Positions 913 to 58,747 of a stretch of 64,000 bases of DNA are shown here, piece by piece. Position 1 is the first letter of the stretch; the number at the start of each line of letters is the position of its first letter. The translations under genes were made by a program, and so were the position numbers. The notes beneath the pieces are model-generated. The model worked only from the letters and a program-made list of their open reading frames with translations. It was not told the origin of the DNA and made no database searches. Origin of the DNA: Antedon mediterranea (Eukaryota > Animalia > Echinodermata); contig NC_092680.1 in assembly GCF_964355755.1 (NCBI RefSeq), forward strand, positions 5,332,001-5,396,000, given 5' to 3'.

Positions 913-984
913 ATAAAAATAGGAGATATACTAATCAGAATACCATGATGAAAGTAAAAAAAGAAGAGCTATAATAATCAGAAT

Positions 985-1590: not shown

Positions 1591-2562
1591 GCAATTGTGG
1601 GGAGGACACCAAAGATCCATAAAAACAGTAGTTTCAATAACAAAAAGAGTAAAATTAAACATTTCTCGTGACTAATGCATATTTAATCATGTTTATTCAA
1701 ATGCAGGAAAGCAATACAATAAATATAATTTAAACAGGTTATTTTCAATGTCATTACTTGCGTGTATCACCAGAGGATGTTAAAATATTAAATACAGTAT
1801 AAACTTGTTAAGTCTGATAAAATGTTTGTCCTTTTGTTAGTGTAGTGTAGAAGTAATTTCGACTTGTGTATTTATTTATTTTACGTACAAGAGTGGTCCA
1901 TCATTAGAGAACCTCACGAAAATACAATTTTACATTAACATACAACAATAATAATAATTAAATTTAAATAAATATAATTCATAAACATTTTAAAAATAAA
2001 TAAATAAATCAAAATGGAAATTAATTAATAAAATAAATTAAATTGGCCATCTCAGAGAGAAGAGACAGGGATAGGAAGCAATTAAGCAAGGAAGGCCAAC
2101 TACTATTAATATTTCTGATATATTTAATATGTTCGTTATTTATTATATTTCCCTAGTCGCAATCACATCCGTAGAGTAAAACATAGCACAGTACATAATA
2201 GACAAATGAACTCCACGTTTTTTAGAAAATTAGAATAATAGACTATAAAGATTTGCCTTTTTTAGTTGCATTGTGCAAGACGATGAATAATTTCCGAAAA
2301 TTTGGCCAAGGCAGGAAGTCAGCAACTTCAAAAGTAGAATTGTCTGAGATGAAGTGCCTTTGTCTCATGCAATAAAAACATTAGATGAATCCCTTCTTGT
2401 CCGATTAGTGTGTAAATAGCGTAGACGTATGGAGTAGTATTGAGGTAGAATTATCATATCCTGACTAGGCCTATTGAGTAGTTTTGGTTTTAAGAAGGCC
2501 AATTGGTGAAGGAGTAAAGCCAACTAAAAAAGTGTCAGTTTCACGTTCAGAATTTGAATTTG

Positions 2563-3687: not shown

Positions 3688-4424
3688 TATGAAGCTTTAA
3701 TTTTAACCTACTTTTTTTGAAAACCTTCGTTTTTCTACGATTTGAAGCTACAACATCAATGTATCTGGTGATGTCGTAGAAACAACTCCAATGCTTTGGC
3801 AGGGCCTTAGTGCTGAGGCAGGGAGAGTATAATTAATAACATCTTTTTTTCCTGTAGCTTCGCGACCAGTATTCGATCTCTTAAATTTTATGTTTAGCGC
3901 CCTCAATTTTAAGAACCTGTAGTAACGTCAGAAAATCAGAGAAACTAATTTAGTACACTAGATTCTACAAAAACTAGATTTTATTTCGTCACTTTGACGA
4001 ATGATAGGTGATCTTTGTGTTAGAAGATAATTTACCCGACATTTAACAACAAATAAATAAATTCGCACAAAATAATCGTATTTCTGAAAAATTGCAATAT
4101 ATTATTAGTATGTAACGTTGAGATAGCTATCGTTTTAAAACTTTCTGCGTTAAGTACGAACTTTGCTCAGAACGCCCTCTATGTAACAAAAGTAGTTTAT
4201 TTACGATTGTGCTGTCAGACGACTACCACCAGAGACCACACCACCAGTTTGGAGCTTCAGCGGCGCGTACGATCTGTGTGGGAGTCTTGGGTTTTGTGAC
4301 TACCAGCCTACCCCTCTCTCTTAAGTTCTAACCGATTTTCCGATTACTGTCATTTATGCAATCTTCAACTACCTGGTAGACACGACTGTGTGGCTGGTTA
4401 GTGGAAGTAAAAGAAGCCGAAGTT

Positions 4425-4585
4425 ATGGATTTTAAGCTCTTTGTTTTGTTTGTTGGTGCTGTTTTCCCAAGTGTATGTCTAGGCGTAATATGCCCAAGCC
4501 GTTGTCTGTGCTTTCGGACCACGGTTCGGTGTATGCATCTGGACCTCAGGCTGATTCCCCAGGTTTCGTCTTCCACTACCATTCT
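4425..4585 (+). CDS. PXDN: Peroxidasin exon 1a: signal peptide + canonical LRRNT
   Basis: [54 protein letters not shown], with phase-2 donor CT|GTGAGT. Confidence 0.93.
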
Positions 4586-7500
4586 GTGAGTATTATGTTT
4601 AATTATCAAGCTTTGTTTACTTGATTATACATGTCAGTTGATGGATAAGTACCATAGTTTACGAAGTAAGCACATTCTTAGAATACATTTATTTATACTG
4701 GACAGCACAGATTTCTTTTCCAGACAGCAACTTTGTTGGTGTTGATAAAATGTAAATATTGAAATAGAAAATAACAGAGTCATTTACCTCATATGAACTC
4801 TGTTGCTAAAGTAAATGTATACTGTTGTATTGAGGAAAACAATGTAATTCCAAAGTCTAAATAAAATCATTACATAAGTATATAACTATTTTAACATTAA
4901 ATATCATTTGTATTTCTTAAACTTTTTAATTACAGCCTAATTTTAATTCTTACAGGTTATAGTAATTTTATATATAATAATAATAATATAATAATTATAT
5001 ATTTTCATTCAGAAATTATTCATCAACCATGGACTTATAAAGTGCATGGTTATACAGTATCTGCTAGTTTAAAGAAATAATTGATAAGAACATATCTTTC
5101 AATTTAATTAACATTTATTTTCATTTCTGAATTCCCTAGTCAAAATTGTATGAACTTTAGTGTGAACTCAAAATGTTGTTAGTCAAATAGATGTTTGTTT
5201 GCTGTGTTATATGTTCAAACACTACAACACATTGGTTGTTATAGTACTTTGTCTCAAGTATGATACATTCAGACACACATGAAACAATAACTAGAAATCC
5301 TATCTTATAGTTATCATAAAAAAAGGTGTGATGTTTTAACACCAAGTGTTTTTTTATCATTGTTTTCAGTAATATTATACCTTAATTGATTATAGTTCAA
5401 AGTGACTGATAAAATCTTGAAAAAAGTGATTAAAACAGTCTATTGAAAATGTCATTGGCTTTTAATGTAAAGATAATGGTTGGATTTTGACCTTGCTGTT
5501 CACTTCCCTTCACACTTTTTGTTTTGATGTTTTAGATTGTTCTGTGATCTAGTTTCAGTTCAAGGTAAATTGCAATATACAGTTTGTGAAAGTAATAACT
5601 ACTCTGTACCTTATTGCCCAAAAAATATAAATGTAAGTGGCGTGATTAGAAAAATGGTATGACAAAACCCAAACCTGTACTTTTTACTTTCGATGTAAAC
5701 TTGTATTTTGTGTGTATATAATTGGGTTAATGATGAAGTAAGAGTTTGGGCTTATGTGTAACTTGTAATAACACAGTTTATGCTTACTGGTAAAACCCTT
5801 ATTATTATGGATTCAATATATTGATTTTTATTATAAATCTGTGTATGAGAAGAAGTGACATGTTGCTAAAATCTGCAAACAACCGTAAACTTAGAAGAAA
5901 CATAGCAAAGTAACCCATTGAAACAACTGAATATGTAGTATTGTATACGATCTACATACTTAGTACAGTATATCACAGTACCATTTTTTTAAAAGTATAA
6001 TTTTTTTGTGGTAAAATGTGTTGGAATTAAGAAGCACACATTACACTGTAAACAGATGATACTCAACTTATTTTTTATTGTAATAAAAAGCACAAAATTC
6101 AAATTAAAAGTTAGTTACTTTTAATTCTATTTTTAGGTATAATGTACTGTTTTTAAAAAAAGAATATATTTTTAAATAACTTTGTTTTGATATATTTCAT
6201 CAGGTTTAAAATGTAAAACATAATTGATTATCAGCAATAATTTCCTTCGTTTCCCATGGCAATATAATTAGTTTCTAAATATAGCTTTTTGCTATGTTTC
6301 ATTTCCATGGTTGATAAGGTCGTAGGTTAATACGCTATTGGGAATATAAATGTTGTAACTTGTTGATAGCATTCTCATTGTTATGTGTTGGTTACCATAG
6401 CAATAATTTAATTCAGTTTTAAGAATTATGTCCCAAGTTAATGTGAATTAAGAACTCGCTTGAGTATTTAAGTGTGAGCCTTTGGCTTGTGATAGTTTTT
6501 AATTATCAGTTTCCAATGACGAACCGACCTACGGAAGAAGTGGAAATTATCGTTAGTTGAGGATAATTTGCCTGCTGCCTAATAAAGGAGTTTAATTCAC
6601 CCGTTACTTGTCAGCAGGGCAGGTCTGTTACTACTGGATCTGATAAGTTCATTGTTGATTATAGCTAGGCTGTTTTCAGAGTATTAGCAGATAGCAAAAC
6701 GCTGTCAAGCAGTCTACAGCATGCGAACTCGGCTCTCTCTTATTTTATTCGTTTCAATAGCAGGAGTGTCCTTGGCGAAGGAATGTCCGTATCAATGTAT
6801 TTGTATGAATAGATCAGTTCGATGCGTATATTCAAGCTATAAGACAATTCCCAGAGTGCCAGACAATACGATCAGTCTGTAAGTAAAAAGTTTAAAAAAC
6901 CTTTGTTTTTCTTTGCTACTTTCATATCATGTCTAATGTATGTATTTAAAGTTATTTTTTAAATCTTTGTCATTATCTTGGCAAATTTTCAGACAATTTT
7001 GATATCTTTTTATAGTAAAATTTAGGATGAAATTCTTCGGTTTTATGTAGTAATCCTTGTGTGTTTCAATTGTGTTTCATTTCACTTTGATTTGTGTAAG
7101 AGATATATAATTTTTTATGATTTAAATGATACAGAGACGTAACAAATAAAATGTATTCATCATGGTTTTTGATAAATACACTTAGACTGATGTCATGATG
7201 TGTGGGAGGCAACAGACTGTGAGACAAGGTTTAAACTTTCAGAAACATATGTACCTGTATCTTTATTACTGTTTAAGCCATAGCTAGTAATTTATGAGGA
7301 TTCCTAAAAAGTACATCTTTACATTAATTATTTCCATATGGATAGAGAAGACTATTGTAACTTGTAAGCTAACATCCTAAACATAAATGAATTGTGAACA
7401 GAAGGATTAGTAAGCCTTAGCAGCATTATCACCAAGGGATGATCATCAGCCAGCCTATACTAGGATGGGTATTAGTACATATGACCCCTTACTGTCATAA

Positions 7501-37500: not shown

Positions 37501-40500
37501 TCAACATACAAATCACCCTTCACTCTTTCAAACTTTCTCACAGTACACTCTACCCTGTAGTAGACAAATTGTACGACATATTGTATCTGCCAAAACATGA
37601 TATCAATTTAGTATATGTCTAACAGTGCCACTCCTAAGATCTAGTTCATAAAACTATGATATGATATTACTACATTTGTATCAGTCTTGTAATAGATGAG
37701 GTAACAAAGTAGAGTAACTATGGTGTTGGATGAAAGATGAGACAAAAATCAAATTGTCATAATCAGCTTTACAGGTGGTCATATGATCAACATAACAGGT
37801 GCATGTTATTTTTGTCTGTGGTTTCTTGTTGACTGTGGTTTGTACCTTACTGGCTGAATCATATTCTCAAAATAACTTTCTTCTGTTTGGTATTCCTTTG
37901 TTATGAACAGGACAATTGTTACTTGATCTAAAATTCAAATCAATTGTCCAATCTGAACACTGTGCCCAATTCTCAATGACCACTGCCTACCTGGATAGAA
38001 CTTAATGTGTTAACCATGCCATTAAAAAGGTAAATGCTCTAGTGTTAAATCTTGGTAAAACTAACCCACCGAGTAATCCAAGTGTGAATAACAGTCAACA
38101 TGGTCAAATTAATGGGGTGAAAATTACCATTTTTAAAACTCCAATGTGAACAAGGCTTAAAGTAAGACTTTCAAAGTATGTTCAATTATGTATATAGTTC
38201 AAGTTATATGAAATAATGTGCTATTTATTACTATTGATTGGGTATTTTTTAGACAACAATGGTGATATCTAAACTTGTCATTCTCATTTGTTAGTGCTTG
38301 ATGAGGGAATTCTCTACATGAAACTGGAGATTCTTTTATTTGGCCTAATGATCCAATACATTGTCATAAGAAAGAATATAACTGAAGTGTTATACTGTTT
38401 CCTACCTGTACAACACTTCATGCACTACTTGAAAAGTTTTTTAGGATCAAGTAACTGTAATTGAAGTAGATATTCCCCAGGGAAGCTTTAGGTGCCTACA
38501 AGCATTCTAATCTTTGACACAATGTAAGTTTATTGAATAGGTTGTTAATATTAAATATACATGACCTGTTATTCACTTGGATTTATTTGTATCAACACAG
38601 ACATGCTTCCTTTAGGCAAGAGTTAACAATTAAACACAATGTAGCAATCTGTTGTATGCTTTGCCTAACTTTCAAGACTGAGTCTACAGACATTTTGTTT
38701 TTTGATACCTGCAATTATGAGTTTTCTGTAATATAGCTCTAGGGAACAGATAATAATTTGGCAAGAATGAGTTAAGGTGATCCATATGTTTGCATACTGA
38801 ATAGGGAATTGTATTTTGTGTTTAAATCAAGTTTATTATTTTCATAGGCCTACTTGCAACTTCAAAACCTTAACACTTAACAGTGAGAAATACTGTTAAA
38901 TCACAAGATTCTTGACTGTATTTAACTCTGAAAGAGAAATAAGTGTATAAACATAGCTATAAACATTGTATACACACATTCTATATGACATTTGTTTCAT
39001 ATACCTCCATAATTTGCATACTGACAAATGACAAATGCATGAATGATGTATATTGAAATATGGATGGCAGATGTGTTTGGCTTCAAGATCTAGGTCACAT
39101 ATTTTCAATGCTATTAATTTTAAACTTTAGAATATGGATTTTTTTCTTAATTGTTCATGCATTGTTTTATCATTTCTAGTAATTAAGGATATACTGTTTT
39201 ATTTCCATTTATTGAGAAAATTATTAACAGGTACCAAGTACTACTCTATTAATACAACTGAAATTTATACATTGAAATATTAAATATTGTTGCCATACAG
39301 TAAAATCTTTCTTTTATTTGGGCACACTTTTTATTGTCAAACTAGTTTAAAACCAAAGTTAATGTTCCTATTTATGTAAAACAGTGGTGGCGCTATTTAC
39401 ATTTTTCCCACATTTTGTGTGAGGACACAACTATTAATTTGTTATATAAAATGTTCATTTCTTTAGTCAATTTAATTCCTTGTAATTATGTTTTACATTA
39501 ATATATTTTTTTTGGTTTTTTTTCAGTGATTTACGTTTTAATAGAATAGATGCAATTCCACCGGGATCGTTCAGTAATCTACGAGATCTCAACACACTTT
39601 TACTAAGTAATAATGACATTCGTAAAATAAAAAATGGGGCATTTGATGGGTTGCACCAGTTACGTTACCTGTAAGTTTTTTTTATGATTTGTTTTTTGAA
39701 CTATGACATATTGTTCAAATACTGTAGGTAAAACTTCTTAAACCGAAGAGCGACCTATAACTTTTTAAAAGGAAAATTTAGTTGAATTAATTCAAACATA
39801 AGCTAGCTAGTTTTGAAATGTTCAATTATCCATTATGAAAAAAACTAATAGCAAAATGTAGTTTACTATAAAGTAGTGTGAATTTTTAGCCTTGTAAAAT
39901 ATTCTTTTGTACATATGAACCTGTATCCTCAGTATGTATAATTACAATAAATATATTATATATTAAACAAAAAACATATTTCTTTAAATATTTTGCACTT
40001 AGTTATTTATATAAGAATCGAATCTCAGAGGTGGAGAGTAAAGCATTTTCTGGTCTGCGGAATCTGGAGCAGCTTTACCTTTATTCTAACATGTTGGCCA
40101 CTATGCATACAAATACGTTCAATGACTTACCTGCGCTTGAAAGATTGTAAGTATATATTTTTTTCAAATAATTTTAAGAAAATTGAAAAATTTGTTTTAA
40201 AATTTAATTATTTCTACTTGGCGACCAAAAAATTAAGTTATTGGAAACAAATAAATCACATCAAAAAGTCGAGCAGTGTTTTTTTAAAAGAATTATTGTT
40301 TAATCTCAAATTCAAATCCATATTTTACTAGAAAATATGAACCGTCAGTATGTTTTTTTTTTCAAAACAAACTGAAGAAAATTGTATGAAAAAAAAACCA
40401 GTAAAACTGTAACTAAAAGTAAATATATTTCAATGTAAATAAATCAATAATGGTAATTATAAAATATGGAATTAATAGTTAAATGATTATCTTTAAATTG

Positions 40501-43500
40501 TGTTTTCTGATGAATTCATTTTTCATTACATTTTTAATTTTCATTTATAGTGTTTAGCTTTCCCAGTTTGTTCCCAGTTTGTTGTGTTTAATAACATTTG
40601 CTTGGGTGCTTAATTTTTTTTTTTTTTGGTTTAAGAAATGCTTTTATAATTTGCAAACTTGCTATTAACTCTCACCAAAAGCCATAGAGTTAGTTGTATA
40701 TCTTAAATCCACAAACAACATATAGAGCTAATCTTGCTGATTCTCTAGAGAGTTTGAAGAAACTTGACAGTACCATTTTTGTTCATTGCTGAAAATCCAA
40801 ATATTGCAGCAACAAACAAATTCTAAACTATGGAACATAAAGTTATTGGTTTCAGTATAAGTTACAATTTTGGTTCTGCAAACTTAAATACTGACATGGA
40901 AACCATTATGGCCATAATGCGTTGAATGGTTGTGTTCTGGATGGAGAACCATCTGGGAATCGGGACGGGTGCTGTATTATGCATATACCAGAGAGTGATG
41001 GTTTAATGATAATATCAGACTAGCATTTGATAGTGGGTTTGATCTGTGCCATACTGATTGCATCTGTAAGAAAGATGGATTACTCTCATTGCCTCGTCCT
41101 TCGGAAGGGATGTAAATATATATATAGCGCATGTTGAAGAACTTGGTACACTTTCTGAAACGAGTAGGGGATTGATTTCAACAACATTTAAAATTCACAA
41201 GCTTATTTCACCAAGGTGTTAACTTAGGTCTAAACTGTGTTTTACCACTGAAACAGTTGATTTCACGCCAATAGCATGCTTCACCATGCCAACAGTATTC
41301 TCGCTTCACAGCACTTGCTTTACTTGTTTTTATAATAACAATGTATTAGTAACTATACATAGATAAGTTAAACTTACAGAACTTTTTAACACTATTTTAA
41401 GCGTAGACTCTACAACTACAGTACATAAATTTAAGGTAATAGTTTTGTAGGCCCATACTGTAGTATACACAGAAGTCAACTAATGTAATTAAGTTACGGG
41501 AATGGATCTATTGATGTCTACAGCTCTTACTACATTAGGTATTTTAACTACCGTACAGAAACGTTCATCAAACTAAGTACATGATCAAAACAAAGAGGCT
41601 CTACAACAACACAATGATTTTTGCTAAAAGTGTCACATTATTTGGTGCTATTTTGTGTCATGGGAAAAACGTAACTAATTAGGAAATGGTACTGTAGATG
41701 AGTGGAAATTTCACATAAAGTCATAATACATTACCAACAATGGGGTCAGTAATCTTAGAATGTCGTGCAATATTTCCTTGCCTCCACTGGACACAAAAAT
41801 ATCAATTTAAATCAATTTGATATCTATCCAAAACAAAATTAAGGTTTATGTGAAAGGAACACCCTTCCTTCAAGGATTCTTCATGGATGTTTTCCAATGT
41901 TTTGGCATTATTAGTGTGATCTTTCTAGAACTAGCCCTATACATAACGTATACTAGTTCTGTACTTAACATTTAACTAATATTCTCAAATAGCCCTTGTG
42001 TTATGTATAATCTATAGTATCTAGTCCTTTGAAGGTATTTCCACATTGTCAACTATACGTGCCAAAAATAAAATTATATTATTAATAATAAATTTATATT
42101 TATTATTTAATTACAATTGTGTGCTTCAAAAAAATCAATATTGACAATCCATGGCAATATGCCTAAAATAAAATTATATATATATGATATTAAGAAAAAT
42201 GTTGATTATATTCTGCTACAAAACACTAACAACTGTTGTGTACAATTTGGTTAACTTGCTGATTATTCTCTTAATAAAGTTAGTAGGGGCAGATTCAGCC
42301 TGAGTATTAGCTTAGTATAACTATTGTTACACTAAAGAATAGAATGGAAACATGTGATTACTCCAAAATTAAGTGGACATTATAGACTTTTAATTCTATT
42401 TTAAGGTCATAACATGTTTAAATTCTATTAATTGGCTTGGTGAAAATCATATTGGTTATGGATATATGGATATTTAGGGCAGCCTAAGGGAACTAATAAA
42501 GGGTTTAATTTTTTTAACTCAAACATCACCAATGCTAGAATAATATTTTGAATGGATTTTAGAAACAAATGTTACCTAACTTTAATAAAAGTGTCTTATT
42601 TTGTTTAACTACTGTTTTTAATGTTTAATTTAATTTCTAATTTAAAAAAAAAAGCTAAAAATTACAGATAATGACAAATAATTTGACAGTTGCTAGTTAT
42701 CATAATAATATAATATTTTGAAGAATTCACTTTTGAAAATTGTAATTTGTTGGCATTAATTAACATTAAACAATAAAGAAAAAATTTTAAAGTATTTTCT
42801 TCTGTTATCATCAGGTTAATTTAAACTTTATCATCTTATTCATGTCATGATTCTAATTCTCTATTGTGTAACCATATAAATCAGTGTTTGGTATCGTGAG
42901 TTTGATCTTTTTCTCCTCCTCGCTTTTAAAAAGGTTTCTTAATAACAACAACATTTCCCATATTCCACTTGGTACATTCACGGAACTTCGGAATCTTAAA
43001 CGATTGTAAGTTTTCATTCATTTTTATTTAAATCATTGTTTATTTCATAATTTCATTTTTCGTTTTTGCCCGATTCATCATGTTTACGCATGTACATCCT
43101 CATTTATGCATGTTAAAAATAACATCAACTTTTTGACCGATTTTAATTTTTGATATTATAATTATGATATACAGTAGGCTTATTATGTTATTATGTATAT
43201 AACCTATAGTGCAAAACTTTAACATTTTCAGTGATATTTTAAGGCAACTTTAGGGAATTTAATTGTTAAAACACCAACATTGTATTTTATTTTTTATTAA
43301 AAATAAAAACGCTCTGTCTATACTATCAAACTTTATGTGACAAAAAAAATGTGATGTGCCCATGGACATGATGATGTCATATCACTACCATATTTGGGCA
43401 CATAACACTTCGTTTGTGTCAATCTTTGAGTTTGATAGTGTAGACAGCTTAAGAACATATATTTATTTTATCAAATGAAAAGTAATTAATATTACATAAT

Positions 43501-46500
43501 AATTACCATTTACAGTTAGGTTACTGTATTTCAGAGAGTTTTACAGAAATGTTTAGAGATTTTGGGCACAAGTATAGTACCTTTTAGTAACTCAATTTGG
43601 AAGTCATTACTTTGGCATCTTAATGAATTTTTAGCTGATACCATTTTAGTTTATTTTATTTTGTACAAAATAACAAACTTATCTGTGAATAAATTCATTA
43701 TTTTTTTAAAAAATGTATGAAAAACCAATATCTTTGAATACCAGTAAGTACTCTCTACTAAGTACAATAGTACTTAAAAGCACACTCTAATAGAGATTTA
43801 TTTTATTAAGTACACTCTACATGCTCAATAAGCTAAGTACTTTCTCAATAAAGCACTTTTGTCAATATCACTTTGCTCAAATAGCACTTTCTTAAAAGTA
43901 CTTATTTCAACAAGTTTACTTTAAATAAACTAAAAAAGTACTCACAAAATAACTGTTACTATGTCTGCATACATTATTTTAATTTAAAAAATGATTTTCT
44001 TGCCTTGCCTGCTTGTATTATCTTTTGTCAAATTACGCTTTTAGCAGCTTGTTCTAAGTAAATGTAGATAATTATGCACCTGTTACTTTGTAGACAATGT
44101 GAATTATAGAATTATGTATTTGTTGTTGATGATGCAATTGCATGTTGATATTTATTATATTTAAATTAAATGCATCATGTTTAATTTAGAACCTTCATTT
44201 ATAGCTTTGTATTTGTGTATTGTATTTTTCCGTGCTGTTTAAAAAAAAATATATATATATATATGGCATCTTGAAATTTACTATACATATTAAATTATTT
44301 GCATATTATTTTATATTTTAATTAAATGTATTCTATTTTATATGAATGTATAATAAATATAAATACACTACAGTTTACTACTTTATTTAATTCTTCTCAT
44401 TATATTAAAATTAGCATTAATGTATTATACTGATGTACTGTACATCATCGGAATGTACTGTAGTGGCATTACTTATGCAAATGGTTGTTATACTGATTTT
44501 TACATCCTATAATTTTTGTTTTTAATTATTCAGTGTAAGATAAAATGATAATATTATAAATGAACAATAGAGGTATAAAAATATATTATTTTAAGACCTA
44601 GTTGACTAATCATCATTGATTAATCATCAGATTATTTAATGATATAAAATCAATTATAGGATATTTAGTACTGACCATGATTTGGGGGATTTCAAATGGT
44701 TTGAAATAAAATATAGATCATTATTTATTTTACAAATTCTTTTTTAGTTAAAATTAATATATTTTATATTACATACTTTAGTTTTGCCATACTCTACCTT
44801 AAAGAACCAATTACATCAGAAAGTAAACATTTGACCAACCAACTTAGCTCCCTGATGCAAAGCTACCATACTCCACACATACAGTAGTACTATGAGTTAT
44901 GCAATTAATCTATATCATCCTGTTTATTTTATTTTATACAATATGTCTATCTTTATAAACACAATTTTTCTGTAGGCCTACAACATATTTCATATCTGGA
45001 ATTCACTTAACCCATTTGCACTTTGTAATTAGTGATTCACTTTTCTTTTTAATTCTATTAGACGTTTGGATTCCAACCGATTAGTTTGCGATTGTAAAAT
45101 GATGTGGTTAGTTCAGATGTTACAAGAAGCTGGTCGGTATGGACACACACAATCGGCGGCGGCGTGCGAATACCCTAAAGAATTACGAGGCAAAAACCTC
45201 ATCTCACTGACTCCGATACAAATGAATTGCCGTAAGTCCTGTTAAAATAACATGTAATCCTTATAGACAAGTGTATACCTAAATATTTAAAGTAGGATAA
45301 TTGTAGATGATAATTTGATAATCAAGTCTGCAAATGGTAGGTTTATAGACTTTTACTAAGACTCTTTGACTCCAAACATTGGTATTAGTCTACTGTACAA
45401 AAGTTCAGTTTAATTTTTATAGCTTTATAAAATGTTGTTGAAAGGTTTGTATGGAGAATGATCAATAGTACAGTTAGGTTTGCCGTACACCATGTGATGC
45501 CAATACGAAATAAAGTATGTTTTGATTTGGTTTCGGTTGTTAAGATCTGTCTACACTATCAAACTAGTTTGACAATTGTGAGGTTTCCAAATATCGTAGT
45601 CATATACTTAAATATGGTAGCGATATGACATCATCATGTCCATAATGGGCACACCACATTTGTCTAAAGATACATAAAGTTTGATAGTGTAGACAGAGCT
45701 TTATGCTACAAACGTCTTCTGAAGAATGCAGTAAGTAATGATAAGTCAAATATAGTAGCACCATCTAGCGTCACACATATAGACTGTCAAGGCATGAACC
45801 GAACTAGACTACGCTTATTAGTTTACACTAAAGCTCTGTCTACACTATCAAACTAGTTTGACAAAAAAGTGTGCCCAAATATGGTAGTGATATGCCCAAA
45901 TATGGCAGTGATATGACATCGTCATCATGGACACATCAAATTCTTTTGTCACATAAAGTGTGATATTGTAGACAGAGCTTAAAGACAAATCAAGTACAGC
46001 CGAAAAAAATGTTCTCAATTCTTTGAGATGTTAGGGTACTCAAAATAAGCACAGGAAAATCAATGTTTATATTCTAAAAGCTATATTTGTTATTACTTTG
46101 TATAATACTTTAAACTCAATCGAAATAGCAAAACATGTTCTAATTCTTATTTATTTGAAATTGAAAGTTATTTTAATGTATAAAGATATGCAACAAGCAT
46201 TGTTTTAAAACATACATATAGAGTGAGACAGGTTTTAGTTCTTTTGTCTGCAAACAAACCTCATGGGTTGTATGTTATTAAATTGAAATATGACAGTGTT
46301 CTATTTTCATCAGGTTTCAATTTAATAGCAACACTGGGATTTAATTTGTATTTAATAATTTTATGAGTTGTCAATGAAAAACAGCTAATCTTCCCTTTCT
46401 TAATTTTAATGTGTAATATTATTTTTTCTATTGTTATGAAAATGTATTTGTATTTCTTCAAATACAATGTGTTCTGTATTATTTTTTACAGTCAGTACTG

Positions 46501-49500
46501 TATCTAAATTTGTCAAATATCATAGGTAAATTTGGCTATATAGCATCTCATGTGTTTCAAGTGATTATTGTATCATAGACTGTAACCTACAGTATACCCT
46601 ATATCTAACCTTCCTTGATACAGGCACCACACGTGATACACATGAAATGCTGTATTGCAGAATTGGCTTTTGATGCTGGACAAACGTCACTACTGTATGT
46701 GGAGATGCAGTGCTAAGTATCTGGTGGTTCATGTTTTTAGGCCTTTTTTATTCCTTTCCAAAATAACTACAATCCTGGTCATTAGTACTTGTTTAATTAA
46801 AAATATATCGGTAAAGTAGCGAACCCAACTTAACAAATAAACACCTCACTAAAACCTTGATTTTCTTTAATAGCGACTCGAGACACGATACTGAACATAT
46901 TATCCACACATTTAGAATATAGTCGCTATCCCTTTTGTAAAGCAGACCCCTACAATGTTTCCCATGTTAGTCTACAGATGGGCGCAACCTGTGTCCACTC
47001 TGGATAGATAAGAGAACTGAACGTTGGGTCAACTTACTGGTCACCGCTTTAGAAATAACATTGAACATTTTGGTAACATGTGTTGTTTAATGCACAAGGT
47101 CTGAAAACTGAGTTTAAAATACACTTTTATTTTTTTAAGAACGTAGGACTCGGCTTTTAGTATAATATAGGTAGAATTAAAATAAAATAAATGAGGAAGG
47201 CATGCTTTGTTGGTATATACTACAGTGTAGCTGTTATTCTGTAAACAACATTAATTGAAAATTTGACAAATTGTGAAGAATTCAAGTAAAAAAACATACA
47301 TACATTGCTGCTTTATTTTGCTGTTTAAGATTTTATTTGTATCTGAATTGAGATCCTGCCACTGATACCCACAGCATTGTCTTGTTTTTGACTTTGTACA
47401 AAATATAGTATTTACATACAAAACAATTTAAATGACATAATTCGTAAATACTGTACGTATTAAGAGAATTTGTGCTTTGGATCAAAGCACAAATGATGCA
47501 CATGTACTAACAACAGGAATGAAAATCATTTTAATCTCTATTTCTAAAGAATAAAGAACAATTTGAAATCAAATTATAAAAAGCTTCTTTTGAAAAACAA
47601 CTGGGACGTTGTTAGGTCTTAAGTGGATTGACAATTATCTGTACATAACTTCAATCCTCGATTACAATTAGGATACGTTGGCCGCTTTTCAGATTTCAAT
47701 CAGCAGAAAATAATGCCTCTTTGCAGTGAATAGATTAAGGACACAGTACTACTTTTTATACTTGTTGAACAGTGCACATATAAATGTACTGTTTTAACAT
47801 ACAGTTATGTTTTCTCTCCCAAGATAGTGTTAATATGGTGACCATAAATATAATTGTTGATGATATCAACTTATGAGATTAGAAACATTCCTTTTTACCA
47901 ATGGGAGATAACATAGTAGTTCAATTTAAGTTTATACTTTGACAGTTAGGTCTAGGCCTATTGGTTGCTGAACATTAGTAAGGTGTGAGAGTGAACATTT
48001 AACCCTTAGATTATAAGTCTATGCTTGCTACTTAGATTATAGTGTTGGAATAGTCATCTAGTTTTTTTTTGCGTCTTTGGACTTTTTCCGAACTGTTATG
48101 TCTAATGTTATGACAGTGTTAACTATAAAAATAGGTACATGTCTCCTGACAGTGTCTCGTAAGGCTTGTTTCTACAGAGCAGGAGATTACGGATTTAAAT
48201 TATACCATATTTTTCCAGAAGTGAGTCCACATAAAAATAACCGATTTTAAACTCTAATTGGTTCCAGTCTTAATCATTAAAGAGCAATTTTTAGGAAAGC
48301 ATGATTATACAAATGTGTAAATCTCTGTCTACACAATCAAACTACTTTGATTGTGTAAATCTCTGTTTACACAATCAAACTACTTTGACAAAGAAAGTAT
48401 GATGTGCCCAAATATGATAATTGATATGCTTAAATATGGCAATGATATGACATCATGTCCATATATGGGCACATCACATTTATTTGTCACAAAGTTTAAT
48501 AGTGGACAGTGTCTACTACTATAATGAAAAGAATAACTAATAATAATATTGTTGTGATTTTGCTTTTCTTTTCTCTTCCAGAGAGACCTCATTTTGTGTT
48601 AGAACCTACGGATGTTGAAGTTTCTCAGGGAAAAAGTGTTTACTTTACTTGTCGTGCTACAGGTGATCCTGAGCCCAGTATTACATGGCTTAGAAACAAG
48701 TAAGTAATAATAATATGATAATAACTTTAAAAATCTAATAGAAACTAAATTACTTAATGATGAATATGTCTATGATAAACTAAATTATTCTTTGAATAAG
48801 TTGGTTTAAAATACTTAATGAAAAAATAAATAATAAATACGATAATTTAATATTACAATATTCATTTAAAGGATGTTTAATGAAATGTTGAAAGTTTATA
48901 TAGAATTTATTTATTCAACTTCTCACTAAGAACTTATTAGTAAATTGGATAGGACCAATAAACACCTATAAAACGGTCCAATCCAAATTTCACAAAGAGC
49001 CCAGTTATGAACAGTGGCTGTGTGTACTATATAGTGTACTAAGTATTTTGATCAGATACAATTCATGAACTATGGTAACAAAAATGAATACCACAATGCT
49101 TCATTAAATTATGATGGGTAAAATAGTGTTACTTTTGTAATTATAGCAACAGTATAAATTGTAAAAACTGTATTTCTATCAAGCGAGATTTACGCACTAG
49201 TTTCATTCTATCAATCATCTTTGATAAACCTCTATAATATTTTGATCTCTCAATCTGAAGCCTGTCTTATAGCAATTATCATACTTAGTCTTTGTTAATG
49301 CTTATAATCTTGCTCTAATACACTGTACTTACTTTGTAATATCTAGTATGTTAAGGACGTTTTTATTGCTAGTACACATTCCAACCATGTTCCAACAAAT
49401 ACTCTACTTCATTTAGTCTTGTTTTCATGAATTAACAAAACACAACTTGAAACAAAAATAAGAAACAACTATGTTTTTGTTTATTAAAATTGGGTATTTT

Positions 49501-52500
49501 ACCTACAATACAGGCCCATTTAACAGTTTTTAGAACTTTTTAGAATAAAAAAAAAATTGATTTTAACTCTTTACTGTTTACACATTATTTAGATTCGTAA
49601 CAAATAAACGTGTAAATGTAAAAGATTTAAATCCAATTTAGCTGTGTTGTTTTCTTGGTGAACTTACATCCCTTTGGTTCACTTAACAGTAATTTATATT
49701 TATGTTTACTTTTTTGTTAAAGAAAACTTATTTTTGTTTGTTGTTTGTAATTAGATTTAAATTTTTAAAATAATTTAACTTTAAATCTTTTTAATTCAAT
49801 CAATACCTGATTCGGAAAATAAATTTTGTTTTTTAATGTTGTGAACAAAATTAGGCTTTAAATTAACGTCTATAGAGATAGCAAGTTTAACCGTCTCTTT
49901 AAAACACATTCATGTCTCATGCATGAAATGTTGCACTAAACAACCGTGACCTCTGACGACCTTTACAGCTGTGTCATTTTGTAACACAGGAAATAAAGCC
50001 TAATAACTACATTATTTCACAGTTGAGCGACGGTGCCTTTAGAGTGTCTGTATCCAGATATTTTATTAGAACTGAAACATTCGTGTTAATTTACAAGTTT
50101 ATTTTCACCAAAAGCAATTGGTTTGTTGTACACTGCCAAGGCTGTACTTCAAATGGTGTCATCTTTAATTTAGCGATCCCTTGAAATTCTATTTTCAATG
50201 ATATGTTTTTAATGCCTCTTCTTCCATGCCATGTTAAATCTTCCATTATAACTAATTGGTCTGTGAAGAAGAGTATGATTAAGGTTGCCTTTCATTTAAA
50301 TGATTTCCAAATAAGTACAAAAACTTTTATTTATTTATTAAAAACACATGTTGCTTCATTATGCTTAAAGTATCTAAATTAAAAAATAATAAATCTATCA
50401 ATTTTTTGTCTTCAAAAAAGTTAATGCAGCATAGTTAAATAAACAAGCTGTAAGCAAATAGCTGTCGTTTTGCATTGCCAACATAAAAGTTGTTGAGTGA
50501 TAATTTGTTAAAACTCACAACCGTTATTTTTAAATCATCATTTAACCAGCTGAACCAATCTCACGTTTGAATCCTCACTCAATTTTGTTTTACCAAATTC
50601 TAAAGCTCTGTCTACACTATCAAACTTTATGTGACAAAAAATGTGATGTGCCCAAATACTGTGGGCACATGATGATGTCATATCACTACCATATTTCGGC
50701 AACATCACACTTTTTTTGTCAAACTAGTTTGATAGTGTAGACAGATCTTAAAACAGGATTTATAAGCTTTTTCCAAGTTATTAAGGTTGATCAGGTTGAT
50801 AGTTCAAAATATCAACAAAAAACATTAAAAAAAATTCTCAGACAGACATTTCTGAAATCATTGTTGTGTTTAAAAACATTTATGTGTTTCCAACTAAAGT
50901 AGTTAACCAGCTGTGATTTATTGGAACGTTAAAGCTCTCTTTAACAGCTGACATGAAAGAATGTTGTTGCTACTAGTAACATGATCGAAGACACACATTA
51001 GGAACATAAGTGCAGAATTAAACTTGATTAACATTGGATGGATGTATTAAGAAATATTAGTATAATTTCATTTAATTCATTATTTATTTGGTCTTTTTTT
51101 GTATAATTGGGGAGACCAGGGTCAACTTAAGTGAACTAAATCACTGTGGCAGAGCTGGTTGACCTAGCCCAAATTCAGTTTACACCTTAAAACAAAACAA
51201 ACTACGGTAATGAAAGTTATCAAAAGGCAAAAAATAAATTCTTTTGCTTTGCATAAGCCATCCAATCATTAAACTTTACAACTAATTATGTTTTAAAATA
51301 ATTAATTAAACAATGGTTATCCTTATAATGTTAAAACAATTATAAAGCTCTGTCTACCCTACCAAACAATATGTGACAAAAATATATGATGTGTCCATAT
51401 ACAGTATGGATACGATAATGTCATATCACTACCATATTTAAGCATATCATTACCATATTTGGGCATATCACACTTTTTTTTGTCAAACTAGTTTGATAGT
51501 GTAGGCAGAGCTTATACTAAATCTGATTTCTTTTGTGGTGGCACTGTGACGTTCTTGCGTATAAATAAAGGTCTTTGGTTCAAATCCTGTGTCATGACTG
51601 TCATGGTTTATTGGGATCAAGTACATGTTTGAATATAATATTGTCTTTCTTTTCAATGTTGGGTTTATAAATCGTATTATAATAAAGTTAAAGTAGTAAA
51701 GAAACTGAAAGTAAAATTACATTGTTTTGAAGAGTTGAGATTGAAACCTCAATTGAACAACAGCCAGATGCCAAGTACACAATACTGACTGATGGGACGT
51801 TGATGATCTTGGATGCATCGGGAGAAGATGAAGGCGATTATGAATGTATGGCACGCAACGCTGTCGGAGAAGCTGTCACAAGAACTGCAAGTCTCAGCTA
51901 TTTTGGAGAACCAAGTATGTAGGCCTATAGCTTAAATCATGGTGTACAATTACTATGTGCCAGTATCAATTTACACTCAGTTTCATAGGCCTTCCATGTC
52001 CATGACTGTCAGAGAAAATTAAGCCTAACTTTGTCAACATACCAAGAAATATTTCTCTGTAGTTTATTTTATGCGCAAAAATTGAATGCCATTTATAAAA
52101 AATCAGTTGATTTTTTTTATCAATATAATTGTGTCTGTTTTTATGTTATTTTCAGAAGCCCCACAGTTTGTCAAGGAACCAGACAATATTGATATACGAG
52201 CTGGAGACAATGTTGAAATACAGTGTGCCGTCAGTGGTCATCCACGGCCAATCATTACATGGACAAAGAATGATAAACAAGTGGTAGAGGATAACCATAT
52301 TAGACTCCTGTCATCCGGATCTCTACACATATCAGAAGTTCAATTTGATGATCGTGGCATCTATGAGTGCTCTGCCACTAACCAAGAGGGCATTATTTCA
52401 ACTACTGCAGTACTCACTGTTTTTGGTAAGGATATGGATAGGAACAATTATTTGATAGGCCTAAAGCTTTGTCTACACTGTCAAACTTTATGTTGCAAAC

Positions 52501-55500
52501 AAATATGATGTGCCAATACATGGACATGATGATGTCATATCACGACCATATTTGGGCACATCACGCTTTTTTTGTCAAACTAGTTTGATAGTGTGGACAG
52601 AGCTTTAGCAACAAAGTCAAACTTAGTGGAGTTATTCTGTTTAATATTTACCGTGTATTTTCTATATTTATTTCAGTTCCACCCTCTTTCATTCAACGAC
52701 CAGAATTTCAAGCAACGATAGAGGGCAGTACAGTAGAGTTTCATTGCACCGCTGAGGGGAATCCATCTCCTGTTATTGCATGGAAGAAGAAAGGTAACCG
52801 GTTCAAAACAAATAATTTAGAAATATGTTTTTGATATTAAATATATAAATATTTAAGCTCTGTTTATATTATCAAACTTTATGTGACAAAAAAAGAGATG
52901 TGCCTATTGTTATGAACATGATGATATCAAAGCACTTCCATGTTTGGGCTCATCACATTTTTTTTGTCACATAAAGTTTGGTGGTGTAGACAGAGCTTTA
53001 TAAAAGATCTATTCAAAGTATACACACATTAATAAATATATATGATTGATTTGTTTAGGATTACAGTTACCTGATGATCGCCGACATGTTGTTTTATCAT
53101 CTGGAACTCTGAGAATTGTTCGGGCAACTAGAGCAGATGAGGGCAACTATGAATGCCAAGCATTTAATAGTGCTGGTTCTAGCCAAGCTACGGCACAACT
53201 GGAAGTGAGGCCTAGAAGTGAGTAACTTTATTTTCCTTAAGCTCTGTCTACACTTTCAAATTTTATGTGACAACAAAATGTTATGTCATGCCCATATATA
53301 GACATGATGATGTCATATTACTACCATATTTGGACACATATCACACTTTTTTTGTCAAACTAGTTTGATAGTGTAGACAGAGCTTTATACTTGGTATTTT
53401 TCACTACAACATAGCACCCTTCCTTTGTAACTTCCCTATTCACAGTACATTCAACTCTATTAGGGGACACATTTATATAAAATAAAACATGAGACAGCAA
53501 TATAATCTTTTATCTTATATATAACTCTTTTAAAGATATATTGTTCCCCTGAAAAATTTTTTTCCAATTTTTGTTGTTGAATGTGCCATTTTGATATTCC
53601 ATAATATTCATGTTTTAGAAAATTAGATTGAAAAAAAATTATTTACCTGAAAACCTGTAATTTAAAGCAAACAAATAGTCAAATTGGCTTCCAGCCAATG
53701 AGTTTTTGGTTGAATTTAACGATTTGGTTTGTCTTTTTATAAGTGAAAACATTTTTGTTTTCTTTTATGCGGAAGTGATAACCTTTATTTGAAAAAAATC
53801 ATTCCATATGTTTTAAATGTAGTTCATTTTCACTATGCAAATTATTTTGTCCTTTGTTTAGTCCCACCAACATTTGAGGTAACACCCTCTGACCTCACAA
53901 TCGTCACCGGGGGAACTGTTGAATTACTGTGCAGCGCTCAAGGGGAACCTACCCCAGTGATTACATGGAGTAAAGATGGCGTACAGATCACTCCGTCAGC
54001 CAAGTTCTTGATTAGCAACAATCACAAGCTTGTTATAACTGATGTTGGTCGAGTTGATGAAGGCAGGTATGATTGTGCTGCTAGGAACAGTATTGGGTAT
54101 GCATCAACGTCAATGGAGCTTAAAGTGGCAGGTAAGGTTGGTGATATGTATGCTCTTAGCATAAATTTAAATAAATTTACAAAAACTGTGTATTTCATAA
54201 TTGAATTAAAGTGAAATGTAAGAAATTTTATAAAAAATAATGAATGTACTAATTGGCTTCCAACATATTTTGATGAGATACAAATTCATGAACTACGGTA
54301 CCAAAATAAACACCAAAATGCTTTATGAATATTCATTAAATTATGATGGCTAAAAAAGTGTATCAATTCAATTCTTGTTACTACCAAAGTCTATCATCTC
54401 CATATGCATCATTTGCAGACATTTTCAAGTCTTCATTTAGCTGAATATAACAATTATTTTTAAATGAAAAATGTGTATATATGTGGATATCCAAGTTTAC
54501 TTTACATTATAGATTCATTACTTTCATTTTTGTTTTTACCTATTTTCACATAAATAATATATGTTGCGTGTTTAAATCTGCATAATAATTTTGATTCTGT
54601 ATTGTTGATGGGAATAAAACCATTCATTACAAATTTCTTTGCTTTGTAGATTTTGAAGGTCCTCGAGAAGGCAATCAGTATGTGGATCAGTCAATTGACG
54701 AAGCAGTTAAGATTGTTGACAAGCGTATAAATGAAACGATTAGTATTCTCTTTGATACATCCAAGCCACGTTCTCCAAGCGATCTTTTGACGTTGTTCAG
54801 ATTTCCTTCTGATGAAGCCGTCAATATTGCGAGGGCAGCAGAGATTTACGAGCAGACACTGCTTCTAATTCATGAGAGTGTTGAACGAGGAATTCTGGTT
54901 AATATGACCGGTATTGGTAGGTTTTGTTTATTTTTCTCTGTAAAAATGCAATATTGTCTTCATATAAACAGATCTATAAAGTTAAATTTATTTCTGAATA
55001 TATTATATTTCTAATAAATAAAATTGATTTTATTTTCCAGATTACAACTACAATGAGTTACTTTCTCCATCATTTCTAAATGTAATTGCTAATAAATCTG
55101 GTTGTATAATGCATAGGAACAATATAAACTGTTCTGACATGTGCTTTCACAAAAAATACAGAAATTACGATGGTACATGCAATAATCTACGCAATCCTGA
55201 ATGGGGTGCATCGTTGACACGTTTTAATCGTATTTTAAAACCAATTTACGAAAATGGATTCAATACCCCGGTTGGTTGGAATGTCTCGCACTTATACAAT
55301 GGTTTTCAAAAACCAAGTGCACGAAAAGTTTCACTGGAAGTTATAAGTACGCACTCGGTGACGCCCAATGAGAAGTACTCGCATATGGTCATGCAATGGG
55401 GGCAATTTTTAGATCACGACATGGACTTTACCGTAACAAGTTTAAGTAAAGCTCGTTTTACTGATGGAGTTGAATGCAAAGACACTTGTGAAAATGCACC

Positions 55501-58500
55501 TCCCTGTTTTCCGATCCGTATTCCCGAAGGTGATCCACGTATACGAAGGTCACAGTGCATGGAATTTACACGTTCTAGCGCCATATGCGGTAGTGGAATG
55601 ACTTCGGTATTTTTCGAATCACCAATGCCACGTGAGCAAATTAACCAGATTACATCGTATATAGATGCGTCTAATGTTTATGGTAGCATTCAAGTTGAAG
55701 CTGTCAAATTGAGAGATTTCACAAACGATAGAGGACTTTTAAAGGAAGGACGTCTTGTTGAATCTTCAGGTAAACGATTATTACCCTTCAATCACGATTC
55801 ACCGATTGATTGCGAACGAGATCTTACCGAAAGCACAATTCCATGCTTTTTGGCGGGTGATTTTAGAGCGAATGAACAACTTGGTTTATTGTCAATGCAC
55901 ACAATATGGATGCGAGAACATAATCGTATTGCCCAAGAGCTTCTTAAGATTAACCCGCATTGGTCCGGTGAGCAAATTTATCAGGAAACCCGTAAAATAA
56001 ATGGAGCACAAATGCAGCATATCTCATACAATCACTGGTTACCGAAGGTTCTAGGACCTGAGGGGATGAAACAGTTAGGAGACTACGCAGGATATGATCC
56101 ATCCATAGATGCTTCTATTATTAATGTGTTTGCAACAGCTGCCTTTAGATTTGGACACAGTTTGATAAACCCATTTATACAAAGGCTAAACTCATCATTC
56201 TTAGAAGCGGAACATGGACATATACCTTTGCACAAAGCATTTTTCTCTCCATTTAGGATTGTGGAAGAGGGCGGAATTGATCCAATCCTTCGTGGTTTAT
56301 ATGGCACTCCGGCAAAAGAAATAAACCCGGGAGAATTAGTGAATCGTGAGTTGACGGAGCATCTTTTCCAAATGGCACACTCGATAGCTCTTGATCTAGC
56401 TGCGCTTAACATTCAGCGTGGTAGAGATCACGCTATTCCTAGCTACAATGACTGGCGCGTTAAATGTAATCTGTCCGCCGCTGAAACGTTTGATGATGTA
56501 ACAAATGAAATTTCTGATCACCGATTACGAAGAAAATTGGAAGATTTGTACAAACATCCTGGCAACATTGATTTATGGGTTGCTGGATTAGCGGAAGACC
56601 CTCTAGATGATGGACTATTAGGACCTACATTTACATGTATTATTGCAGAGCAGTTTAAAAGGACACGTCAAGGAGATAGGTAAATGTATACTAATGTTTT
56701 AGTCGTTGAAGGCCTATGTCATCCCAAATATTAGCATCCCATTTCAATAAGCATTTCCTTTTAAGAATTTTCTATTTTTAAACTTGTTTAAAATGTGGAA
56801 ATATGCAATATGCTTTTGCAATAATTGTAGTTGATACATTTTTGCTCGATTTTCAGACTATGGTATGAGAAGCCATCCGTATTTGAGCCAGCACAACTAC
56901 AAGAAATCAAACAAACCTCATTGAGTGCTGTTATATGCAACAATGCAGATGACATCAAAGAAATTCAGAGAGATGCATTCTTGAGGGCAGACTATCCTCA
57001 TGGATATCTAAAATGTGACTCCATCCCTAAAATTGATTTAAGAATGTGGACAGACTGTGAAGCTGGTAAGTCATCGCCATAATGATGGTTGTCATGCAAT
57101 CATAATATGAACAATTTACACTAAGCCCCGCCTACTTTTAGACTGCACATGTCCCAATCTCCCGTCCACAATTTTCTAGAATCGATAAACTGCATATTTG
57201 CCATTGTCTCAAAACATCAAGTTGAAAAACTCATTCTTAAGTACCGCAATGCAATTCTAATTTGAATTGAACTTTTTTAACATACTGTAATGTCTTAATG
57301 TTGTGTTTACAAAAAGGAACATTTCAATACCATAAACTGATTTGTAAAGGGTAAAACAGTGCTAGTTGGATGGTTATTCATCAATCGCTAGGCTCAAGGA
57401 ATAACATTTTATGTGATAAACACAGGCGCTCTGTTCACCACCCTGCTCCCGTCTTGATGCATATAGTCCCTGGTTATTATATCATGACAGTTACCATGTA
57501 GTCATGTTATCATAATCAAGTTTATTATTATCATATCAAGATGGTGGTTATAATGTTTTTAAGGATGGATATTCATATTCATTCATACATTTTACTACAA
57601 CTTTATCATTAGTAAAGTTCAGGTTGCTGTACACCATGTTTTTCCATGTTGTACCACAAGCCTAACATTACTAGTGTTTATTCCCTATACAAATCTTAAA
57701 CCATCATCAGTGTCATTATCCTTGTGTTCATCATTATAACACCATCCACATCATATCCTGTCTATTTTCATCATCATAACACTAACAGCATCATAAAAAA
57801 ACCAAAATATAACAAAAAAATTGTTTTTGTTCTTGACAGATGGACCTGCAACCGTAACAAATATTTTTAGACGAAAACGATCAGCTTCTGAATCAGCCAA
57901 TAAACAAATTGCAACTGGGAATAAAATAAACAGTGATATCTCAATGGAAATACGAGGTGCACAGTTGGAAGAAACAGTTAATGAAATGCAATCAACAATT
58001 AAAATATTACAGAAAAATGTAGACTCACTAACACAAGAGGTATGTATAATAGGTGCATATTAATCAGTGGTAGGTCTTGGATTTTCAAATAGAGGTTGAG
58101 TGGGAGGAGGACACTAAAATCCAAACTAGGTTAACCCAATGTTTTATCTTTTGGATTGTATTTCCTGAGCCGGGTTAATCCCCAATCTTGGTCCCACCTA
58201 CAGTATGTAATATGCAATGTTTGTACATTTGTTTTTACTTAAATCCTTTTAAACAAACGAAAATCTAAATTTATATATAATTATTGAGTTCAAATTATAG
58301 GCCTACTATACACAAAATTGTTTGTTTCATTTAAATTGAAATAAGAATATATTATAAGGTTCTAAATAGACAAACAATAAGTTTTATTGAAATGTCTTGA
58401 CTGTATGCCTGCAATATTTGCATTTAAGTCAAATAAAACAATTCAATTTCCTATTAGCAGTTTATTTATTAGGAAATGTCCTATTAAGTAATAAAAGTAA

Positions 58501-58604: not shown

Positions 58605-58747
58605 AGTATCTATTTGTTGAAAGATTATTTTCATAAACTATATATCATGCATTGTGATGTCCAACTGATGACTGAAATGCTGTTGAAATTGTTTTTATGT
58701 ATTACATGCGAATCATGTATTGTTAATAGGGATCTTTTGATATATCA

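What the first reader, a model, noticed from the sequence alone, without database searches (positions are those of the whole stretch)
6721..6884. Hidden duplicate first exon: two alternative signal-peptide+LRRNT modules for one peroxidasin
Seen: 2.1 kb into intron 1 is a 158-nt ATG-initiated frame, below the ORF-track cutoff. It encodes a hydrophobic leader plus [32 protein letters not shown] and ends CT|GTAAGT. It aligns without gaps to the exon 1a cap ([32 protein letters not shown]): 12/32 identical, all four Cys kept, same phase-2 donor. Either exon can therefore join exon 2 (39527) in frame. Exon 1b adds an N-R-S glycosylation sequon. Known: peroxidasin forms collagen IV sulfilimine cross-links, and its LRRNT is normally highly conserved (1a is the canonical type). 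Inference: high divergence with intact frame, cysteines and donor suggests an old duplication under selection. This would be a two-promoter, variable-first-exon system that swaps the LRR cap of an otherwise identical enzyme. I know of no such arrangement described for peroxidasin.
Basis: partly seen in the sequence, partly recalled or inferred. Interest (0 to 1): 0.88.

Follow-up and report, generated by a model that had tools for sequence, protein, structure and literature searches.

The report
Second front exon in crinoid peroxidasin
A feather-star gene for the matrix cross-linking enzyme peroxidasin carries, inside its first intron, an old and diverged but intact second copy of its first exon, which likely gives a second enzyme version with a different binding tip, although its splicing to the rest of the gene has not yet been seen in RNA.

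Summary
The gene is the peroxidasin of the crinoid Antedon mediterranea (100% to RefSeq; 16 exons). Exon 1b (6721-6878) encodes a predicted signal peptide plus a 32-residue LRR cap, ends at the same phase-2 position as exon 1a, and would join exon 2 in frame. It is not neutral debris: it keeps 10 of 11 near-invariant cap columns but 1 of 9 family-typical ones; 0.25% of comparable neutral simulations did as well; its donor outscores 1a's. Use is unproven. One RNA-like run shows 1a spliced to exon 2, while its contig over 1b reads through the donor unspliced; all three RefSeq isoforms start with 1a; no orthologue was found. Best reading (0.6): a restricted, second-promoter first exon that keeps the cap fold and replaces its surface, including the equivalents of human F43, R44 and I66, plus a new glycan site. 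Main rival (0.22): once used, now silent. It would work like UGT1/protocadherin variable first exons; I found none described for peroxidasin. The scan had not noted this element; it noted a similar layout in an ACE gene and a duplicated LRR exon in arthropod peroxidasin.

The parts
4217..4424 (+). 5' untranslated part of exon 1a as far as covered (true start not shown)
   Evidence: Run X1 contig covers 4217-4585 with no differences
4425..4585 (+). Exon 1a coding part: signal peptide plus canonical LRR N-terminal cap, phase 2
   Evidence: Start of RefSeq X1-X3; contig continues into exon 2 letters (table 7); Pfam LRRNT E 0.0011, below cut-off
6345..6720 (+). Putative promoter and 5' leader of 1b (inferred): TATAAA 6345, TCAGT 6413 and 6506, three short upstream frames that end before 6721
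   Evidence: Motifs, individually weak (TATAAA occurs 1.2 per kb in the intron); X1 contigs cover 6391-6595 and 6612 onward
6721..6783 (+). Exon 1b leader: ATG with A at -3, basic start, hydrophobic core, predicted cleavage after Ala19
   Evidence: Translation; best 8-residue hydropathy 3.08 versus 2.92 for 1a; cleavage site by the recalled (-3,-1) rule, no predictor run
6784..6878 (+). Exon 1b LRR cap, 32 residues, four Cys, new N-R-S sequon
   Evidence: 12 of 32 identical to 1a; 35.8 bits on a peroxidasin-cap profile; Pfam LRRNT E 0.0017, below cut-off
6879..6884 (+). 1b splice donor GTAAGT; if unspliced the frame stops here at TAA
   Evidence: 9.6 bits on a matrix of the gene's 15 donors, reached by 0.36% of 2197 intronic GT; bridged unspliced by an X1 contig
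39527..39670 (+). Exon 2, first shared exon (LRR1-2), strong acceptor
   Evidence: Exact mapping of RefSeq X1; acceptor 14.5 bits, best of 15
40003..58604 (+). Exons 3-16: remaining LRRs, four Ig domains, haem peroxidase domain, C-terminal coil
   Evidence: 16-exon model translates exactly to RefSeq X1; Pfam An_peroxidase E 5e-206, I-set x4, LRR_8

Best explanation
Exon 1b is an old copy of peroxidasin's first coding exon with an intact frame and donor, and it likely serves as an alternative first exon, probably read from its own promoter in a restricted tissue or stage and spliced to exon 2. The product would be a secreted peroxidasin identical from LRR1 onward but with a different 34-residue tip. 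Shown: position, frame, phase, donor strength, retention of the structural cap residues. Inferred: origin by tandem duplication, promoter, junction, secretion. More speculative: 1b keeps the disulfide-bonded cap fold but replaces the family-typical surface (F8M, R9N, T10R, T11S, M15V, L17S, L19Y, I31S) and would place a glycan on the hairpin, so the enzyme would bind its usual matrix partner differently or not at all and would make hypobromous acid at another site; mixed trimers would be possible.
For: Keeps 10 of 11 columns conserved in at least 48 of 49 homologous caps but 1 of 9 columns conserved in 40-47 of 49 (Fisher p 0.0009, 0.009 without the four Cys). Neutral decay: of 12,000,000 simulated copies 2,851,760 matched the divergence, 102,774 of these kept four Cys, and 262 of those (0.25%) also kept 6 of 7 other near-invariant residues, an open frame and GT, with indels not even counted. 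Synonymous sites saturated (pS 0.82, pN 0.46). Donor 9.6 bits versus 6.1 for 1a; it sits exactly where only splicing to an LRR exon completes the fold. No other LRR exons in intron 1 on either strand. No variant row at 6452-7048 in three DNA runs of one sample, about 8 clusters expected at the neighbouring intron rate (linked sites, weak). Contigs of the RNA-like run X1 cover 6391-6595, 6612-6934 and 6928-7087. Cap positions 8, 9 and 31 equal human F43, R44 and I66, named as an interaction patch in a modelling study (PMC13155146 passages); the human LRR domain binds laminin (PMC10657184 passages).
Against: The X1 contig over 1b bridges the donor unspliced, 56 letters into the intron. 3 of 3 RefSeq isoforms begin with 1a. 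0 of 126 fetched peroxidasins with a readable LRR1 start carry a 1b-like cap. Promoter motifs, CpG (8-10% of intron windows reach it), GC (7.8%) and codon usage (17%) are not distinctive. dN/dS about 0.34 on 31 codons does not exclude a neutral 1b beside a constrained 1a. X1 was picked because it holds this stretch, so its cover there is partly by choice, and its strand is unknown. Its 1b contig has one inserted letter whose place was not shown; it could lie in the coding part. For the exon alone the lack of variants is not significant (P 0.11).
Confidence: 0.6

Rival explanations
1. Exon 1b was a working alternative first exon for a long time but has recently fallen silent or stopped splicing; RNA over it is leaky or unprocessed.
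For: Unspliced contig across the donor; no RefSeq isoform. The selection signal is historical and cannot date the last use. Variable-exon clusters shed relics (PMC1885805 passages). Several changes are drastic for this family (L17S, L19Y, I31S).
Against: No stop, no indel, ATG, hydrophobic core and a full GTAAGT are all intact; no variant row over the exon and its flanks in one sample.
Confidence: 0.22
2. The 1b unit is a short unspliced transcript that ends in the intron and makes a 53-residue precursor, releasing a 34-residue two-disulfide peptide, or simply dampens full-length transcription.
For: The frame stops at the donor's TAA; X1 contigs run 6391-7087 across the donor; AATAAA lies at 7145.
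Against: The stop follows from any phase-2 CT|GTA or CT|GTG donor and 1a has one too. The +4 to +6 AGT and the cap's last structural residues (T29, L32) would not need keeping. The AATAAA carries a variant at 7147 in run X2.
Confidence: 0.08
3. It is a neutral dead duplicate, or a stray cap exon from some other LRR gene, never used by peroxidasin.
For: No DNA similarity to 1a is detectable by local alignment in cap, leader or flanks; the only representative hit was a Slit-like protein; 1b scores below every peroxidasin cap tested (35.8 versus 44-67 bits).
Against: 0.25% under neutral decay. Same 32-residue length, VRC and IPxVP spacing, and a score above four Slit-type caps (21-28 bits). Tandem orientation 2.1 kb from 1a, and no partner LRR exons nearby.
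Confidence: 0.06
4. 1b is an internal cassette spliced between 1a and exon 2, giving two caps separated by a membrane-spanning leader.
For: An AG lies at 6718-6719 and joining 1a there would be in frame.
Against: That acceptor scores -12.8 bits, lower than any of the gene's 15 acceptors; the X1 contig passes 6720 as plain genomic sequence; 1b has its own ATG and leader.
Confidence: 0.04

Closest known systems
Vertebrate variable-first-exon genes UGT1 and GCNT2 (PMC1885805, passages read)
   Same: Duplicated first exons in tandem ahead of shared constant exons; in UGT1 each encodes a signal peptide plus the N-terminal recognition part; birth-and-death evolution with relics.
   Different: Only two copies here; the variable part is about 34 mature residues of about 1,365, one cap of a repeat solenoid, not a whole domain; promoter and splicing are not shown.
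Clustered protocadherins and chelicerate sDscam (bioRxiv 10.1101/2019.12.15.877159, passages read)
   Same: Promoter choice would swap the outermost recognition module of an extracellular protein.
   Different: Those have 50-100 isoforms and set cell identity; this is a secreted enzyme with two options.
Bilaterian peroxidasin (RefSeq XP_071965526.1, XP_071965528.1, XP_071965529.1 of Antedon mediterranea)
   Same: Same gene; signal peptide, LRR, four Ig, haem peroxidase.
   Different: All three models use 1a. The 1b cap is 12 of 32 identical to 1a, whereas 48 of 49 other 32-residue caps are at least 19 of 32 identical to 1a (the exception is a mosquito cap at 12).
Other LRR-domain variation in peroxidasin: 72-nt LRR exon skipping in RefSeq isoforms
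   Same: Isoforms differ in the LRR domain and keep the catalytic part.
   Different: Internal exon skipping, not a duplicated first exon with its own leader.

Membership tests
Peroxidasin (host gene) | Signal peptide, LRR domain, Ig domains and haem peroxidase domain in one chain | tested here: met
   Pfam LRR_8, I-set x4, An_peroxidase; 100% to RefSeq peroxidasin; 16 exons map exactly
Peroxidasin (host gene) | HOBr production and collagen IV sulfilimine cross-linking | not testable with these tools
   Reported as conserved in sea urchin in PMC11200632 passages; not tested for this species
LRRNT cap (Pfam PF01462), exon 1b | CP-x2-C-x-C ... V-x-C ... IP ... T-x2-L pattern with four Cys | tested here: met
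   All present; peroxidasin-cap profile E 4.6e-9
LRRNT cap (Pfam PF01462), exon 1b | Pfam gathering score 25.8 bits | tested here: inconclusive
   1b 18.4 bits, but the genuine 1a also fails at 19.0
LRRNT cap (Pfam PF01462), exon 1b | Packs on the first LRR to close the solenoid | not tested
   No structure prediction was obtained
Variable-first-exon genes (UGT1, GCNT2, Pcdh type) | Two or more homologous coding first exons in tandem ahead of constant exons | tested here: met
   Exactly two in the window
Variable-first-exon genes (UGT1, GCNT2, Pcdh type) | Each has its own ATG and a donor in phase with the first constant exon | tested here: met
   Both phase 2, both in frame
Variable-first-exon genes (UGT1, GCNT2, Pcdh type) | Each is separately spliced to the constant exons | tested here: inconclusive
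   1a shown; 1b seen only unspliced, in contigs of one run, which drop rare forms
Variable-first-exon genes (UGT1, GCNT2, Pcdh type) | Each is preceded by its own promoter | tested here: inconclusive
   Weak motifs only; contigs cannot show a start

The most novel reading that the evidence does not exclude
Crinoids make two peroxidasins from one gene by promoter choice: the universal matrix-anchored form and a form whose cap has lost the conserved hydrophobic and basic patch and carries a glycan there, sending the same bromine-oxidising enzyme to another compartment or, in mixed trimers, tuning basement-membrane cross-linking (for example in autotomy, regeneration or defence). It would be a natural mutant that isolates what the near-invariant cap is for.
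Probability: 0.3. Interest if true: 0.72.

Novelty: new member of a known kind. Interest (0 to 1): 0.47.

Why it matters
The peroxidasin cap is almost unchanged from insects to mammals, and the role of LRR-laminin binding is described as undetermined (PMC10657184 passages). A naturally selected version that keeps the fold and swaps the surface points to the residues that set where the enzyme works, and can be tested by a cap swap in existing cross-linking assays. It also shows a selected coding exon that current gene models lack.

Tried and rejected
No own genome is held, so other copies elsewhere in the genome were not searched. Run search: no RNA holder listed on record; 5 runs of 2 studies, X1 guessed as RNA; 4 of the 5 were laid. 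No contig joining 6878 to exon 2 was seen, and X1 has no cover at 4698-6293; neither is used as evidence, since contigs show presence only. Contig depths (21.8 over 1a, 3-5 over 1b) are not an expression measure. A second laying over a longer stretch gave no result, so intron background beyond 3900-7300 is unmeasured. Protein searches for 1b: 0 of 2 candidates among longer proteins; exact sequence absent; 1 generic Slit-like hit among 1.84 billion representatives; weak generic caps in PDB, best E 0.12; an exon-2 query gave 14 hits of 25 candidates and no other crinoid. These blanks are weak: isoforms hide inside clusters, and the one other crinoid protein (Anneissia, P0004) lacks its N-terminus. 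No Atlas result and no complex prediction were obtained. No peroxidasin among the best 60 of 208 PDB matches. Rfam: 0 matches. Nested LRR gene in intron 1: none. dN/dS alone: not decisive. One search's strictest simulation criterion (all 12 kept residues) was post hoc and was replaced. Literature: searches (listings only, except the six papers cited as passages) showed no peroxidasin with a duplicated first exon; most subscription journals are not held, the primary laminin paper was seen only as cited, and PMC4571896 was not held. No supplements were opened.

Full report
Identity of the gene. The large peroxidase exon is 100% identical to RefSeq peroxidasin of the feather star Antedon mediterranea, and 91% to that of Anneissia japonica. 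Isoform X1 maps exactly onto 16 exons from 4425 to 58604, with LRR, four Ig and haem peroxidase domains. Intron 1 is 35 kb.

The observation. Exon 1a is 4425-4585 and exon 1b is 6721-6878; both end in phase 2 within a Leu codon, and both read in frame into exon 2 at 39527. The caps align without gaps with 12 of 32 identities. A profile of 58 peroxidasin caps finds 2 of 2942 stop-to-stop segments in the window, 1a and 1b, and nothing else below E 0.57. The full pattern arose in 0 of 300 simulated introns. There is no third copy in the window, and no nested LRR exon in intron 1.

Origin. 1b scores 35.8 bits on the peroxidasin-cap profile, above four Slit-type caps (21-28) and below the peroxidasin caps tested (44-67; ten of these were in the training set, 1a was not). 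It has the 32-residue length found in 50 of 59 unique caps and keeps Pro26, the commonest residue there, where 1a has Ser. With tandem orientation 2.1 kb from 1a, duplication of exon 1 is the simplest origin (inference). It is old: pS 0.82, pN 0.46 over 31 codons, and no DNA similarity remains in leader or flanks.

Selection. Of 167 fetched proteins 101 had a readable cap, giving 49 unique 32-residue caps besides 1a. 1b keeps 10 of 11 columns conserved in at least 48 of 49, but 1 of 9 conserved in 40-47 of 49; Fisher p 0.0009, or 0.009 without the four Cys, three of which were fixed by my search pattern. In neutral decay of 1a, 262 of the 102,774 simulated copies that matched the divergence and kept four Cys also kept 6 of 7 other near-invariant residues, an open frame and GT. 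Indels were not simulated; at 0.1 per substitution the chance of none in the cap is 0.056 to 0.003. The donor scores 9.6 bits against 6.1 for 1a, and 0.36% of 2197 intronic GT reach that. So 1b was kept as a spliced coding cap for much of its history. dN/dS by itself (about 0.34) does not show this, because a neutral 1b beside a constrained 1a would give about 0.5.

Present use. Run X1, guessed as RNA, has a contig over 4217-4585 that continues with the first 30 letters of exon 2, which shows the 1a junction. Over 1b it has three contigs (6391-6595, 6612-6934, 6928-7087), and the middle one crosses the donor unspliced by 56 letters. This fits nascent or retained RNA from a 1b promoter, a short transcript, antisense RNA or stray DNA; contigs cannot tell these apart, and X1 was chosen for holding this stretch. 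That contig has one inserted letter of unshown place; a break in the X5 contigs beside the A run at 6894-6899 suggests it lies behind the donor (inference). The three RefSeq isoforms all start with 1a, and none of 126 fetched peroxidasins with a readable LRR1 start has a 1b-like cap. In three DNA runs of one sample, 43 listed variant sites (one more indel row was not shown) include none at 6452-7048, where about 8 clusters are expected; for the exon alone P is 0.11; the single variant in 1a is synonymous. Promoter signs are weak: TATAAA 6345, TCAGT 6413 and 6506, CpG ratio 0.83 against 0.42.

How it likely works. Shown: a complete leader-plus-cap module in the right phase. Inferred: transcription from about 6350-6700 in a restricted setting, splicing of 6878 to 39527, cleavage after Ala19, and secretion of an enzyme that differs only in its first 34 residues. 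The kept residues are those common to LRR caps in general (recalled, and seen in the Slit and VLR caps). The changed ones are those typical of peroxidasin. Cap positions 8, 9 and 31 correspond to F43, R44 and I66 in a 1479-residue primate sequence; a modelling study names these as a hydrophobic patch with a flanking Arg (PMC13155146, passages; a model, not an experiment). 1b has Met, Asn and Ser there, and the Asn starts the new sequon. The human LRR domain binds laminin, with the role undetermined (PMC10657184, passages), and the mammalian enzyme works as a trimer (PMC8533639, passages). The likely effect is therefore altered anchoring with unchanged chemistry; this last step is speculative.

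Comparison. It would work like UGT1 and GCNT2, where each variable exon has its own promoter and splices to constant exons, with relics among them (PMC1885805, passages), and like chelicerate sDscam (bioRxiv 10.1101/2019.12.15.877159, passages). Two defining features are met here (tandem homologous first exons; own ATG and matching phase) and two are open (separate splicing; own promoter). Eight paper searches listed nothing on a duplicated first exon in peroxidasin, within a library that lacks most subscription journals. Peroxidasin LRRs already vary by exon skipping: a 24-residue repeat is missing from one RefSeq isoform each in Antedon, Asterias, Apostichopus, Diadema and Lytechinus.

Verdict. 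A real, old, selected duplicate of coding exon 1; probably a minor alternative first exon (0.6), possibly a recent relic (0.22). The layout is a known kind, new for this enzyme. Interest 0.47, rising to about 0.7 if the junction and a changed binding behaviour are shown.

Noticed in passing
window 42934-43005: Exon 4 (72 nt, one LRR) has a weak acceptor (-9.9 bits) and is skipped in RefSeq X3; a 24-residue gap at the matching place occurs in isoforms of Asterias amurensis, Apostichopus, Diadema setosum and Lytechinus pictus, so the skipping looks conserved across four echinoderm classes.
   Followed up: partly
window 54650-55041: RefSeq X1 and X2 differ by two residues at the exon 12-13 junction, an alternative splice site 6 nt apart.
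   Followed up: no
window 57840-58604: The protein ends after an RRKR motif (a likely convertase site, recalled) and a coil; no VWC family is among the 25 of 29 Pfam families shown or in the precomputed list for the echinoderm hits.
   Followed up: no
window 984-1592: 25-bp minisatellite, 24 copies, GC-rich, giving long open frames on both strands.
   Followed up: no
window 7674-7780 and many other places: An interspersed repeat of about 100 bp with more than 15 matches in the window at 74-88% identity, dense in the later introns.
   Followed up: no
window 15753-16247, 30881-31574, 58745-59351, 60587-60801: Further tandem arrays with units of 17 to 133 bp.
   Followed up: no
proteins P0018, P0023, P0030, P0044, P0056: Several arachnid peroxidasin models have short unrelated N-termini in place of the cap; probably a missed distant exon 1, but a cap-less isoform is not excluded.
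   Followed up: no
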